From: Octopus vulgaris
Taxonomy: Eukaryota
NCBI GenBank assembly: GCA_951406725.2
Contig: OX597815.1
Location: forward strand, 156,302,001-156,366,000
DNA length: 64,000 nt
Direction: 5' to 3'
A program made the position numbers and the translations under genes. Under the pieces are notes generated by a model. That model was not told the origin of the DNA. It made no database searches and saw nothing but the letters and a program-made list of their open reading frames with translations. Shown one piece after another: positions 18,768 to 64,000 of this stretch. Each line of letters begins with the position of its first letter. Positions within the stretch are counted from its first letter, which is position 1.

Positions 18768-18868
18768 AAATTCCTACCTATAGCTGTTTCAATACCCAAT
18801 TCTTTAATTTCAGAAATAAAATTTCATATTCGAAATCATTGAATTAGGTACATCCTCGGGGAGAATTT
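18768..18868 (-). ncRNA. Degenerate long-stem-II hammerhead
   Basis: Minus strand reads aaauucuc-c-CCGAGGA-uguaccuaauuc...gaauuggguauu-GAAAC-agcu-AUA-gguaggaauuu. Confidence 0.55.
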
Positions 18869-19740
18869 AATAGGATGTCATTTAACAACGTATAGTCTAA
18901 TCTACAACTAACTTAGAAGTGTTTTTTTTTCTTAACGCAAGCGTTCCGTAGAAACCGTCAGTGCCACATATATACCAAAATAAACACATTCAAAACATCT
19001 TGCTTGTGTCAATATGATACACAATAGTACATTGATGGTGTTATGGTAGTTAAGATATAGACATTATCGAGAGAGCAGCTAGACACGACAATTCGCCGAG
19101 CATATGCCTAAATATATCATATCAAACTCCACTCAACGCCATCCAAAATTGCTACGTCAATCAATGTTTACGCAAAGACACGGTCTATACGTATCAAGTA
19201 AACACAAACAGACCCCACATATTGCCACATTAAACCTACAGAAAATCAACATATAGTCCTAAGTGTCCATTTTGAAGGATGGACGCAAGACAATACCATT
19301 TCTATCTTAGTATTCATAGATAACCCTGATTAACATTTCCCACTACCGAAAAACGTCTTATTTTTTGTTATCTGTTAAATTGCAAATAAATTTACTAAGA
19401 CTAGTGAAAGCAGACCTATTTTTATTGTGTATGGAAACAGGTGTAGGTGGGAATTTGTATGTAAACATTTGAATGCCTTTAAGTAAAAGTATTTGTACCT
19501 AAAATTTTATCCATTTTCTTTTATATATATATATGTATGTATGTATGTATGTATATATATGTATATATGTATATGCATATATATATATATATATATATAT
19601 ATATATATATATATATATGTATGTATGTATGTATGTATGTATACACAGACACACACACACACACACATACACACACACACACACACACACATATATATAT
19701 ATATATATATATATATATATATATATATATATATACATAT

Positions 19741-19903
19741 ATCCGACGGTCTTCTTTCAGTTTCCGTCTACCAAATCCACTCACAAGGCTTTGATCGGCC
19801 TGAGGCTATAGTAGAAGACACCTTGCCCAAGGTGCCACGCAGTGGTACTGAACCCGGAACCATGTGATTGGTAAGCAAGCTACGTACCACACAGCCACTC
19901 CTG
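19741..19903 (-). mobile_element. SINE family A, 5' half
   Basis: Reverse complement matches 22791-22955. Confidence 0.9.
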
Positions 19904-21174
19904 TGTGTGTGGGGAGGTTGTACAACTCACAGTAAATAAGAAACTCACAAGAAAGACTAAGTGATTTATTAGAAAGCCTATGCTTTGAGAGGTTGTTTTC
20001 ATTTCATTTCCCACACAGGTCGTTTGTTATTTAAGAGTCTGTATGCATGTGTGTATTGGACACATATAAATAATTATCTTCATATATTTTAGTAATTTAA
20101 AAAATATATATGTCACAAATGTTAATTTACGATTTAAAAATAATCTCTTATGGATAAATGAATTGTTGGCAAGATATATTTTGCGAACAAAGGAACAGAA
20201 GTAATTTTTCAAATAAAGAAATTGTCTAAAGATAACGTACTTATACATTTGTCACTGATGATACTAAATAGCCAGTTTTTGTTAAATAAAATCTTTTATT
20301 AAAATAAAGATTTCTAGGACAACTACGTGTGTAAATGTATCTGTGTGTGTGAGAGAGAGAGAGAGAAAGAGAAAAATTTCTTCCCGAAGCTCAAAATAAG
20401 CTTAGCTTTCGCTGAATACATAAGATAAGCTTTCTTTGCTTGACGCCAGAATAAGAAATCGCGAAGGGAGACCACAATAAATATTAGTTATCTCTTCAAC
20501 TTTTAACACAAGTTATTTTTCTAAAGACGGCTTTTCTGGGCATTCAATGATACATGAATCAAAACAAGCTAATTATAGATTATCGTCACCTGAAAGACTG
20601 TAGGTCTGCCAATCATGTACCAAACGTTGTTTATTCTTTTATTATTGATGACCAGAAGAAATGTATGTAATTGTGCATGGCATTCAACTGATAAAAGAAA
20701 TTTATGAAATATTTGTGGAAAAAGAATTTGACGTTCAGCTGAGCTGTCTTCCTCCATTTGTTTATGCTACAATACATAAAAAGTAGTTTGCTATCATGAT
20801 CAATGTTTATATTATTAAATAAGCTTAATATTTTCGGTGATGACTAAATAAGAATATAAACACACTTTGTATATGTTATTGATGTGTGAAAATATGAAGA
20901 GATTTTCCCCACGGGCCGTTTTTTGCAGGTTTTTGTCCGATCTTAATAGATGATGTACGTAACTGTCTTCCTCAATCATTGGCACAGTTCACCTGCTATT
21001 TAATGCATCGCAGAAATAAATTATACCTGCACATTAGTGGATATTCTAAGTTGCATATTTGTCCCTTTTCGTTTTTAAATGACATTTATTTTGTATAAAA
21101 CACAACGGTAAACAGATAAACTGGAATAAATTTAAGTATTTCTAAAGCTGGACTAAAAATGTAAACGTATTCTG

Positions 21175-21612
21175 AGTATTATCATTATCATTATTTGTTT
21201 TATTCTTTCAGTTTTGTTTCCATTTCCACCGAGTGTCTTCTCGACACTTAGAGTAGAGGAATTCACTATATACGTTCATACGGCATTGAAATAAAAATAC
21301 CAGATCGTTCATTTACAAAATCAAATAAAGTTATAACTAAAATTATATTTGCATGGAAGGATGTCATTCTCACGGCGACAATATTCTACTCAATACCTGT
21401 GAGGTATCTCTGGAAACAGTTTTCTGCATTTCTTGCAGGGGTGGTAGGCTAGGGATAGTTCTCAAATAATTTGCAGGAAAACCCCAAATATTCTATACAT
21501 TTTTCTCCCTCAGGTGATTATACCACTTGTCTACAAATTTTGATTTTATAATGCCGACATATCAATCAGTGGGGAAACTGGTCAACCCTGCCATGCCTTT
21601 ATTTATGATCTA
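21175..21612 (-). mobile_element. R4/Dong-like (RLE-type) non-LTR retrotransposon 3' fragment, pseudogenised
   Basis: Minus-strand translation gives RHGRVDQFPH*LICRHYKI..DKWYNH and YLRTIPSLPPLQEMQKTVSRDTSQVLSRILSP*. These resemble the RHDxVxxxLHWxICxxY...KWYxH and LQKxxLLGTxxILRxxL motifs. A 3' UTR and taa/tga tail follow. Confidence 0.7.
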
Positions 21613-21639
21613 CTGGTGCTAAAACTTTACACCAGGAGA

Positions 21640-21827
21640 TTATTATTGTTATTATTATTATTATTATTATTATTATTATTATTATTATTATTATTATTAT
21701 TAGTAGTAGTAGTAGTAGTAGTAGTAGTAGTAGTAGTAGTAGCAGCATTATTATTATTATTATTATTATTATTATTATTATTATTATTATTATTATTATT
21801 ATTATTGTTATTATTATTATTATTATA
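21640..21827. repeat. (TTA)n/(GTA)n compound microsatellite
   Basis: Directly visible. Confidence 0.95.
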
Positions 21828-61840: not shown

Positions 61841-62082
61841 TATTTCTATTTCTTTACTATCTACAAGGGGCTAAACACAGAGAGGACAAACAAGGACAGA
61901 CAAACGGATTAAGTCGATTATATCGACCCCAGTGCGTAACTGGTACTTAATTTATAGACTCCGAAAGGATGAAAGGCAAAGTCGACCTCGGCGGAATTTG
62001 AACTCAGAACGTAACGAAGACGAAATACGGTTACGCATTTCGCCCGGCGTGCTAACATTTCTGCCAGCTCACCGCCTTATTC
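61841..62082 (-). mobile_element. Intact young tRNA-derived SINE, family B, with 13-bp TSD
   Basis: tgcggtagttacc at 61828-61840 and 62083-62095. Minus strand has an A-box-like head, B-box gagttcaaattcc, core gtcgactttgcctttcatcctttcgg and an (agaaat) tail. Confidence 0.95.
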
Positions 62083-62190
62083 TGCGGTAGTTACCGTGAC
62101 CGTAATTCTAATATTGGTTTATGGCGCAAAATCTACTCATGTTTATATCGCTAGGGAGGAGCTAAATCCCCGCTAACCATCAGTTCACGA

Positions 62191-62241
62191 GACCACCAGA
62201 TCAGAAGATTTCGACCTTGTTTGGTCTTGTCAGTGATGGTC
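62191..62241 (-). ncRNA. Type-I hammerhead, all stems intact, with a single G8>A core change
   Basis: Minus strand reads gaccauca-CUGACAA-gacc(aaacaa)gguc-GAAA-uc(uucu)ga-UC-uggugguc. Stem I is 8 bp. Confidence 0.75.
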
Positions 62242-62466
62242 ACTCGACGCCAGAGGTGATTCATCGCCCTACCAGGTATATATAATATTGTTCAAGTGTC
62301 AAGTGGTATTTTGGAATTTCTATGCCTTCTGTTCAATCCAGTTTTGTCACCTCAAGATATATAGACACACATTTTACTTCATGTAGCTGAAAGGTACACA
62401 CCTGTTTTCGCAGATATCCAGATTTTGCTTCATTTGCTGTTTCTTTTCTTTCATATATTATTCTTA

Positions 62467-62500
62467 CACTTTGATAAAGAGTTCGTGCGAAACGTCAGTC
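62467..62500 (+). ncRNA. Decayed minimal hammerhead
   Basis: acu-UUGAUAA-agaguucgugc-GAAAC-GUC-agu. Confidence 0.4.
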
Positions 62501-62884
62501 GACTTTGCCTTCTTTTGTCTTCGTAGGTCATAAGTTATTATGTTAACTTCTTTTGTCTTTACGTTTTCTCAATCACTTTTTGAATTTTTGGCTACCTATT
62601 GTAACCTCTCACGTTATCCAACAGTCAGCCTCGTCTTTCGTTTCATTTATACATAAACACACATACAGACATATGTATATATATACATACACACACACAC
62701 ACAAACACACTTATATCTATATCTATGTATATATACATATATATATATACATATATATGTATATATATATTCACATATATATATATATATATATATATAT
62801 ATATACATATATATATATATATATATATATATATATATATATATATATATATATATATATATATATACATATATATATATAAAT

Positions 62885-64000
62885 TAATAATAATAATATT
62901 AGGGAATAAATCCAAACTTACAGGGAAAAATTAGATTTAGAATTAAATCCAATTTTATAGTATGAATATATTATATTATATTAAATTAGAGATAAAACCA
63001 CTATTAGGCAAATCAAACAGTGAAAAACATAAGTCAATACTTAAAATTAATTAAAAAATATAAAAGTTAAAAATTTAAAAAATTATTTAAATAATTTAAA
63101 CTTATAAATTTTAAATATATATATACAAATATATATATATATGTATGTATATTTTATATTTATATTTATATATTATTTAATTTATTAATTTCTTTTAAAA
63201 ATAAATATCAAAAGTATTAAAAGTTTAATAAAAGATAAAGAGTAAAACACTACGATCGTTTCATGGCTGTACCAATTCGAATAACAATAATTTAAATTCA
63301 ATTAATAATTCGAGTTATGGTTACAGTCGATCTTCAGGTTAATTGAAATATTTTAAAAATAATCAGAAATATTTAAACAATATTTTTAAGGTATAAATAA
63401 TATAATAATATTACTAATAATAAACTCTATTATCAAACGAGAAACTTAAAACTTAACAATTATGATTATATCAAAATCGATTATAATGTTAAATATTAAT
63501 TTTAATTTTTAAGGTAAGAAACCCACCAATAATCTAATATCGGTAATAGTCTATATCTAATTACATAAATATATTTTAAAACATTACTATTATATATAAA
63601 TTATCAATGAAAATATATAAATGTATATAAATATCATAATTAAGATCTAAAATAATCTCTATAAATAAATATATATGCACATATGATAAAGACCTAATAA
63701 ATTAATTTTTCATATTTAAAGATGAAATAGCTAATTTCAAAAATACAAACAAACAAACTTAAGCGAACTTTCGGAAATCTTTTTTAAAATACTTATAGAA
63801 ATAATCAATTCGTAGTTATATAGTATCGAATAAATACTATAAATACTATAAATATATTTATCAATGGGAATAAACTAGCGAATATCAATTTAAAAAGACA
63901 ATAACTAAGATATGCTATTAAGTTAGACATGGCCTGGACCAATCTTTGGTCGAAACATATCTAAGTTTATCTAAGTTTATCTAATTTTAATTATAAGAAA
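62885..64000. mobile_element. Very AT-rich Penelope-pLTR-like repeat block
   Basis: 62980-63095 is the reverse complement homologue of 32545-32660; it contains an HHR at 63248-63340 and a 56-bp identity to 5641-5696. Confidence 0.5.
63248..63340 (-). ncRNA. Long-stem-II hammerhead with intact core
   Basis: Minus strand reads ac-CUGAAGA-ucgacuguaacca...(68 nt)...ugguacagccau-GAAAC-gauc-GUA-gu. Stem III is palindromic (ACGAUCGU). Confidence 0.65.

What the first reader, a model, noticed from the sequence alone, without database searches (positions are those of the whole stretch)
18768..63340. Recurring hammerhead subclass with very long stem II and GAAAC-NNNN-GUH stem III
Seen: stem II regions of 56 nt (3347-3402), 62 nt (18791-18852), 65 nt (25372-25436), 97 nt (33848-33944) and 68 nt (63263-63330). 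Each is an imperfect long hairpin of different sequence, with stem III loops AUAU/AGCU/AGCU/CGCU/GAUC (mostly palindromic) and short AU-rich stem I. Established: typical minimal Penelope HHRs have short stem II. Inference: a structural variant that standard descriptors would miss, where the long helix may serve as an RT- or ADAR-binding handle.
Basis: partly seen in the sequence, partly recalled or inferred. Interest (0 to 1): 0.72.

Follow-up and report, generated by a model that had tools for sequence, protein, structure and literature searches.

The report
Long-armed hammerheads of Penelope-like retrotransposons
The five hammerhead-ribozyme motifs in this window are real and sit at the clipped ends of repeats that are mostly traceable to Penelope-like jumping genes; roughly 49,000 such motifs in this octopus-like genome carry an unusually long folded arm that the standard RNA-family library missed wherever it was tried, and that arm is likely a tolerated extension rather than a required handle, with self-cutting predicted but not shown.

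Summary
All five sites exist at the stated coordinates (four on the minus strand); two window copies have damaged cores, while their family majorities are intact. Each belongs to a different dispersed repeat family. Families A, B and E are 3' ends of Hydra-clade Penelope-like elements (PLEs); C and D are linked less directly. Genome-wide, CUGANGA-N40-100-GAAAC-N4-GUH occurs about 49,000 times above control, three times the short form. The insert is a rod closing at the core (73 of 109 sequence clusters, against 6 of 118 chance matches), with compensatory changes in three subfamily alignments. Loop III is palindromic (70 of 118), as in known dimer-cleaving PLE hammerheads. Rfam and the 2014 descriptor miss the form. 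But length is a continuum (16-100 nt), and elements with 92-97% identical RT carry 16-68 nt stems, so this is neither a discrete subclass nor an obligatory RT handle; I found no support for ADAR. Cleavage is untested. Verdict: new structural variant of a known kind. This scan noted the same form before on other DNA.

The parts
3270..3494 (-). Family A element: short 3' fragment of a Hydra-clade PLE, ending in (TA)n
   Evidence: [quoted passage not shown]
3335..3409 (-). Hammerhead A: core CUGAUGA 3409-3403, stem II 3402-3347 (56 nt), GAAAC-AUAU-GUC 3346-3335; predicted cut after 3335; stem I 3414-3410 with 3334-3330
   Evidence: covariation in alignment A1
18501..19426 (-). Family B element: 5'-truncated PLE with an endonuclease remnant at about 19253-19426
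   Evidence: Collinear with endonuclease-bearing loci L043, L042, L055; 116 candidates, copies 76-87% identical
18779..18859 (-). Hammerhead B (damaged copy): core CCGAGGA 18859-18853, stem II 18852-18791 (62 nt), GAAAC-AGCU-AUA 18790-18779
   Evidence: family majority has intact core and GUA
19426..19524 (+). Inverted partial arm of element B (3' part of stem II, GAAAC-AGGU-GUA at 19434, tail) running into (TA)n
25220..25470 (-). Family C element fragment (likely PLE 3' end; one copy, L009, has an endonuclease remnant about 1.1 kb upstream, across another repeat)
   Evidence: (1619 candidates)
25360..25443 (-). Hammerhead C: core CUGAAGA 25443-25437, stem II 25436-25372 (65 nt), GAAAC-AGCU-GUU 25371-25360
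33800..34150 (+). Family D element fragment (likely PLE 3' end; a 99-nt-stem relative, L241, lies 3.0-3.2 kb downstream of an RT-endonuclease ORF)
   Evidence: (1234 candidates)
33840..33956 (+). Hammerhead D (damaged copy): core CUGGACGA 33840-33847 with one inserted G, stem II 33848-33944 (97 nt), GAAAC-CGCU-GUA 33945-33956
   Evidence: family majority CUGACGA and loop AGCU; covariation in alignment A2
62842..64000 (-). Family E element: 2.7-kb 3' region of a Hydra-clade PLE, continuing about 1.5 kb beyond the window end
   Evidence: L178:1343-4048 aligns at 88.6% with L179:7105-9784, which follows an RT and endonuclease ORF; 2118 candidates, best copies 96-98% identical
63251..63337 (-). 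Hammerhead E: core CUGAAGA 63337-63331, stem II 63330-63263 (68 nt), GAAAC-GAUC-GUA 63262-63251
   Evidence: alignment A4

Best explanation
These are type I hammerhead motifs at the 3' end of Penelope-like retrotransposons (Hydra clade where an ORF could be traced), predicted to cut as dimers or with help from the element's protein, and the long stem II is likely a peripheral extension that selection keeps folded but does not require. Shown: intact cores in family majorities, a rod closing at the core, compensatory changes, palindromic loop III, linkage to RT-endonuclease ORFs, and wide length change among close relatives. Inferred: two copies pair their 8-nt AC-N4-GU palindromes to build helix III; the basal 11-13 bp of stem II must pair to set up the core; the distal part grows and shrinks by small duplications and deletions in AT-rich sequence and survives only if it folds back on itself; insertion uses RNA that still spans the cut site, since copies end 60-150 nt downstream of it.
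For: Rod closes within 3 nt of the core in 73 of 109 clusters of 48 nt or more (best-folding member of each cluster used), against 35 of 1090 shuffles, 3 of 109 flanks and 6 of 118 metagenome pattern matches; without picking members, 61 of 88 and 18 of 30. Both-sided changes: 7 of 12 basal pairs in A1, 14 of 38 pairs in A2 including 8 of 16 distal pairs, 9 of 17 pairs in A3 including 4 of 4 stem I pairs; covariation score above all 500 shuffles in each. Loop III is a Watson-Crick palindrome in 70 of 118 clusters, 11 different palindromes, 6.5% expected; monomer stem III pair probability 0.04 or less, self-duplex -6 to -11 kcal/mol in 9 of 9 examples. Hydra-clade motifs in full ORFs. Stems of 16, 17, 19, 39, 44 and 68 nt with RT 92-97% identical; the short ones form a clade (support 99) nested among long ones, and that short-stem family has intact 838-852 aa frames. 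In alignment A4 the basal helix is kept while 30-40 distal nt come and go. No shared stem II sequence between families: a model of family A scores the other four window sites at E 0.86 or worse, or not at all.
Against: Distal helices also covary, and a large loop with a longer 5' side recurs after about one helical turn (34 of 58 first large loops follow position 9-14; 23 of these 34 longer on the 5' side, 8 on the 3' side), which could be a functional site. Long stems outnumber short ones 3 to 1. Clusters and aligned copies are related, so the counts overstate independence, and the A1-A3 structures were drawn from the sequences themselves. No cleavage data; in 25 alignments reaching the ORF start of the short-stem family none began at the predicted cut site. 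Tree is midpoint-rooted, and 10 of 22 RT rows had no linked hammerhead.
Confidence: 0.6

Rival explanations
1. The long stem II is a functional domain: a one-turn basal helix followed by an asymmetric loop docks the element's own RT-endonuclease protein, or makes a tertiary contact with stem I, and so switches cleavage on; short-stem families lost it secondarily.
For: Unpaired probability peaks at 5' positions 14-16 (0.54-0.57 against 0.32-0.34 on the 3' side); distal covariation in family D; a Poseidon PLE hammerhead cleaves only when its protein is added (PMC11167929); long stems appear ancestral in the RT tree.
Against: Loop sequences are not conserved across families; near-identical RTs go with 16-68 nt stems; the recurring position may reflect common descent.
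Confidence: 0.25
2. The motif is no longer catalytic in vivo; core and hairpin serve only as an RNA landmark near the RT start site.
For: Copies end downstream of the cut site and full-length copies keep the 5' hammerhead; catalytic mutants did not affect insertion in vitro for the Anolis element; stem I is formed with P>0.5 in only 14 of 109 clusters.
Against: All catalytic positions and the NUH triplet are kept in family majorities, with covarying stem I and palindromic loop III; the scan pattern itself required the core, so core conservation is independent evidence only for the five homology-collected families.
Confidence: 0.1
3. The long helix is an ADAR editing substrate or handle in the editing-rich cephalopod cell.
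For: Rods of median 20 bp in total, up to 36; heavy A-to-I editing in coleoids is recalled, not tested.
Against: Only 1 of 109 has an unbroken helix of 15 bp or more; A>G is not in excess over other transitions among genomic copies of any of the five families; sense-strand A>G sites were about as many in presumed RNA contigs (18, 24) as in DNA-like contigs (13, 16) over an 851-nt stretch of family A (contigs are a weak test).
Confidence: 0.05

Closest known systems
Hydra-clade PLEs and their hammerheads, including Hydra-1_Obim of Octopus bimaculoides (Craig et al. 2021, PMC8557442; read: passages, section 11, supplement parts 1-2 and search hits)
   Same: C-terminal GIY-YIG endonuclease, DKT, RW(K/R)-type motif, CxCX5C linker, CxxC and CxH motifs, GLYRDD, (TA)n targets, type I hammerhead near the 3' end with AC...GU stem III
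   Different: Listed Hydra hammerheads have at most about 26 nt between core halves (23 in Hydra-1_Obim) and 5-6 nt between AC and GU; here 16-100 nt and 4 nt; elements here reach 4.8-6.3 kb with long 3' regions, against under about 3 kb
Minimal and palindromic-helix-III hammerheads of metazoan PLEs (Cervera and De la Pena 2014, PMC4209133; read: first 20,000 of 32,700 characters and the whole supplementary PDF text)
   Same: Type I topology, extra nucleotide at 9/10.1 in many copies, short stem I, palindromic helix III, predicted dimer cleavage, dispersed 5'-truncated copies, opposite-strand pairs 100-700 bp apart
   Different: Helix II there is 7-8 bp at most; descriptor allows stem 3-7 bp, loop 3-10 nt and no loop III, so these motifs fail it twice
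PLE-X1 hammerheads of Selaginella (File S2 of PMC8557442)
   Same: PLE hammerhead with a long stem II region (53 nt in PLE-X1_sMoe)
   Different: Two plant, endonuclease-less families, annotated as a short stem with a long loop and marked as deviating; not a multi-family rod with covariation
Animal non-LTR retrozymes (PMC7229834, passages; bioRxiv 10.64898/2026.07.22.740005, part 1 of 5)
   Same: Type I hammerhead with 2-bp stem III and palindromic tetraloop; some long-stem families here form 534-594 nt tandem units
   Different: Canonical retrozyme hammerheads have a 4-5 bp helix II; the five window sites are dispersed, not tandem

Membership tests
Type I hammerhead ribozyme | Core CUGANGA, GAAA, NUH in type I order | tested here: met
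   3 of 5 window copies; majority of all five families
Type I hammerhead ribozyme | Helix II starts at the core | tested here: met
   73 of 109 clusters; covariation
Type I hammerhead ribozyme | Helix I closes the junction | tested here: met
   4 of 4 pairs covary in A3, 92% paired in A1; weak in many single copies (66 of 118 with 3 or more pairs)
Type I hammerhead ribozyme | Site-specific self-cleavage | not testable with these tools
   Needs a bench assay; only contigs, no raw RNA reads, were listed
Type I hammerhead ribozyme | Loop I-loop II tertiary contact of fast hammerheads | tested here: inconclusive
   Loop II is displaced by 20-36 bp; a recurring internal loop has no conserved sequence
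Rfam hammerhead families | Match to an Rfam hammerhead model | tested here: not met
   0 hits at gathering score in the window; no hammerhead family among 105 hits at E<=10 in 20 long-stem loci or 5 hits at site E; no short-stem positive control was run
Minimal PLE hammerhead (Cervera 2014 descriptor) | Stem II 3-7 bp, loop 3-10 nt, GAAANNUH | tested here: not met
   Descriptor text against 56-97 nt and GAAAC-N4-GUH
Dimer-type PLE/retrozyme hammerheads | Short helix III with palindromic loop | tested here: met
   70 of 118 clusters, 6.5% expected
Hydra-clade PLE | Single ORF, RT then C-terminal GIY-YIG endonuclease | tested here: met
   838-955 aa frames; GIY-YIG Pfam hits below the curated cut-off, E 0.001-0.002; full ORFs gave no Pfam hit
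Hydra-clade PLE | DKT motif, CxCX5C linker, CxxC and CxH around E and N | tested here: met
   Read by eye in L226, L227, L244 against the definition and alignment in PMC8557442; the family A ORF fragment lacks a visible linker motif
Hydra-clade PLE | RWK motif | tested here: inconclusive
   KWK in L226/L227, RWR in L244
Hydra-clade PLE | Placement in the clade by RT phylogeny with reference elements | not tested
   The tree holds only elements of this genome
Hydra-clade PLE | pLTR tandem or inverted 5' copies, 5' truncation, (TA)n targets | tested here: met
   (TA)n within 200 nt of the cut site in 9 of 9 family E copies but only 3 of 7 A, 4 of 13 B, 2 of 12 C, 2 of 15 D
Non-LTR retrozyme | Tandem 170-600 nt non-coding units each with a hammerhead | tested here: not met
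   Five window sites are dispersed; A, B, E trace to ORF-bearing elements. Non-autonomous status of C and D is not excluded

The most novel reading that the evidence does not exclude
Octopus Hydra-clade PLEs evolved a hammerhead with an extra stem II domain, a one-turn helix plus asymmetric loop and distal rod, that docks the element's protein or rebuilds the tertiary contact, making a protein-switched ribozyme present in about 49,000 copies and dozens of families that current searches do not see.
Probability: 0.25. Interest if true: 0.7.

Novelty: new variant of a known kind. Interest (0 to 1): 0.45.

Why it matters
Ribozyme censuses built on short-helix descriptors or Rfam would miss about three quarters of this type of hammerhead in this genome. 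The role of PLE hammerheads is an open question; here near-identical RT proteins come with natural stem II lengths of 16, 39, 44 and 68 nt and with intact reading frames, a ready-made series for testing what stem II does for cleavage, protein binding and reverse transcription. The long, family-specific stems are also good markers for sorting PLE families.

Tried and rejected
Rfam E-value scan of the whole window: only microsatellite-driven microRNA hits among the 150 of 420 rows shown. Direct-repeat search was swamped by microsatellites. Idea that long stems pre-fold better than short ones: true in 6 of 7 long against 0 of 2 short hand-picked examples but not in the full set (5 of 10 short, 20 of 44 and 17 of 29 long with P>0.5); rejected. 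Genomic trace of cleavage (copies starting at the cut site): 0 of 25 alignments, short-stem family only; the second half of that script was unreadable because of microsatellite hits. No RNA holder listed; contigs from four coded organisms hold family A sequence but cannot show ends or editing; family E has no read or contig data. Metagenome scan for the motif: 6 of 118 matches fold like a stem II, none of these with stem I of 3 bp, no PLE protein nearby; treated as chance. Long stem with loopless stem III: 4540 against 1784 control, pattern not specific, many rows are GUAC-loop families. One covariance model for all five sites: a family A model does not recover the others. A deaminase gene between two hammerheads in L191 is a 6.2-kb segmental duplication, not a captured gene. 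Lunse et al. (PMC5785218) is not held and Arkhipova et al. 2017 on Terminons was not read; both may describe relaxed or long-stem variants.
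Full report
Observation. The window is AT-rich (34% GC), full of microsatellites and without long coding frames. It lies in a 2.8-Gb genome whose retroelement proteins have their best named matches in Octopus records, so the host is inferred to be an octopus. Three match the strict pattern CUGANGA...GAAAC-N4-GUH, against 0.15 expected from shuffles. The copies at 18791 and 33848 have damaged cores. Four of five stems fold better than shuffles (z -2.7 to -5.2); the 3347 copy does not (z -0.9).

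Each site is a repeat family. Searches of the own genome gave 2218, 116, 1619, 1234 and 2118 first-look candidates for the sites at 3347 (A), 18791 (B), 25372 (C), 33848 (D) and 63263 (E); only 40 were scored and 20 loci fetched per family. The majority of aligned copies has an intact core and a palindromic loop in all five families. Copies have clustered 3' ends, variable 5' truncation and frequent inverted partial copies next to them. In the window, element B has such an inverted arm at 19426-19524.

The elements. Longer family A copies end an ORF with a GIY-YIG endonuclease about 600 nt upstream of the core. The window's B copy is collinear with endonuclease-bearing loci and holds a remnant itself. 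The E copy carries 2.7 kb of 3' region that follows an RT-endonuclease ORF in L179. C is linked through one locus, D through a relative with a homologous 99-nt stem; these two links are weaker. Full frames of 838-955 aa show DKT, GLYRDD, a CxCX5C linker and CxxC/CxH motifs, which match the definition and alignment of the Hydra clade in PMC8557442. That is a motif comparison by eye, not a tree with references.

Scale. Exact matches genome-wide, with the reversed pattern as control: 10-39 nt spacer 17,970 (1,475); 40-70 nt 40,872 (1,643); 71-100 nt 11,315 (1,251). So about 49,000 long and 16,500 short above control; damaged cores and other loop III lengths are not counted, and a site can fall in two bins. 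From loci then held (family hits, most of the first 100 listed matches of the 40-70 class, the first 30 and 20 hand-picked of the 71-100 class, the first 15 of the short class) I collected 270 distinct matches in 140 clusters at 80% identity.

Structure. In 73 of 109 clusters of 48 nt or more the spacer folds as a rod that closes within 3 nt of the core, against 35 of 1090 shuffles, 3 of 109 flanks and 6 of 118 metagenome matches. That count used the best-folding member of each cluster; unselected samples gave 61 of 88 and 18 of 30. Sequence-only alignments of related subfamilies show both-sided changes in 10 of 27 pairs (A1, 15 sequences; 7 of 12 basal stem II pairs), 14 of 38 (A2, 8 sequences, including distal helices) and 9 of 17 (A3, 15 sequences; all 4 stem I pairs). 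Covariation scores exceed all 500 shuffles and all slid controls, but the sequences are related and the structures came from them, so this is not an R-scape result. Loop III is a perfect palindrome in 70 of 118 clusters, in 11 different sequences, with 6.5% expected; the monomer stem III is not predicted to form, while the 8-mer self-duplex is worth -6 to -11 kcal/mol. This is the dimer design described for PLE hammerheads (PMC4209133; PMC6765202 passages).

What the long stem is for. Lengths form a continuum from 16 to 100 nt. In the lineage of family E the basal helix is kept while the distal part changes by 30-40 nt. In a tree of 22 RT fragments (12 with a linked hammerhead; midpoint root) stems of 16, 17 and 19 nt form a clade next to 39, 44 and 68 nt at 92-97% RT identity, inside lineages with 73-99 nt; the 16-nt family has intact frames. 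An obligatory handle for RT is therefore unlikely. A large internal loop recurs after about one helical turn, more often longer on the 5' side, without shared sequence; this keeps the functional-domain reading open. For ADAR I found nothing: short unbroken helices, no A>G excess among copies and no clear RNA-versus-DNA difference in contigs. Better pre-folding of long stems was not borne out. Copies end 60-150 nt past the predicted cut in families A and E and full-length copies keep the 5' hammerhead, in line with PMC11167929 (parts 1-2 of 4 read), where uncut RNA was the insertion template and cleavage needed the protein.

Comparison with print. The 2014 descriptor allows at most 26 nt between core halves and no loop III; its 56 aligned examples are all short. 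Hydra-clade hammerheads in File S2 of PMC8557442 have at most about 26 nt, including the one octopus family; a 53-nt region is listed for a Selaginella PLE as deviating. Rfam gave no hammerhead hit in the window or in 20 long-stem loci. 'Long helix II' in viral hammerheads means 6-8 bp (PMC13725137 passages). A 2026 repeat annotation of Octopus vulgaris does not use the words hammerhead or ribozyme in its main text (PMC13282606); the giant squid paper counts 235 Rfam hammerheads (PMC6962438 passage). PMC3088659 was seen as passages only. Ten literature searches showed no description of 40-100 nt stem II hammerheads in octopus PLEs; Lunse et al. and the Terminon paper were not read, and bioRxiv supplements were not available, so prior description is not excluded. 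Earlier notes of this scan report the same form on other DNA; I reached the reading before looking.

Verdict. Real, abundant and apparently undescribed in this form, but a peripheral variant of a known ribozyme in a known clade of retrotransposons, with cleavage and the role of the stem untested. New variant of a known kind; interest 0.45.

Noticed in passing
window 4247-4638: Near-perfect palindrome, 196-nt arms at 95% with no spacer, starting beside (TA)n; related sequence occurs in other loci; may be a two-armed insertion of another repeat
   Followed up: no
window 60593-61302: Tandem dimer of a 365-nt unit, 82% matches; no hammerhead pattern in it
   Followed up: partly
L178:4610 (-) and 4684 (+), about 2.1 kb beyond the window end: Back-to-back pair of short-stem (16 nt) hammerheads of a related family
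   Followed up: partly
L188:874-1942 and G000:C1:10836774-10838638: Tandem units of 534 and about 594 nt, each with a long-stem hammerhead: retrozyme-like derivatives
   Followed up: no
L191:3270-3932: Intronless dCMP-deaminase-family ORF (PF00383, E 1e-27) in a 6.2-kb segmental duplication; 7 matches in two clusters on contig C1
   Followed up: yes
L176:8840-9901 (-): 354-aa frame that looks like the C-terminal part of a different PLE clade (recalled resemblance; no Pfam hit)
   Followed up: partly
L226/L227 and L244 ORFs: Long asparagine-rich insert between RT and endonuclease; related octopus proteins are named 'GATA zinc finger domain-containing protein 14-like' in public records, probably a misannotation
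   Followed up: partly
L021-L040 (family A 3' ends): Two kinds of 3' end: about 60 nt after the predicted cut, into (TA)n, or a shared extension of 150 nt or more; could be two RT start sites
   Followed up: no
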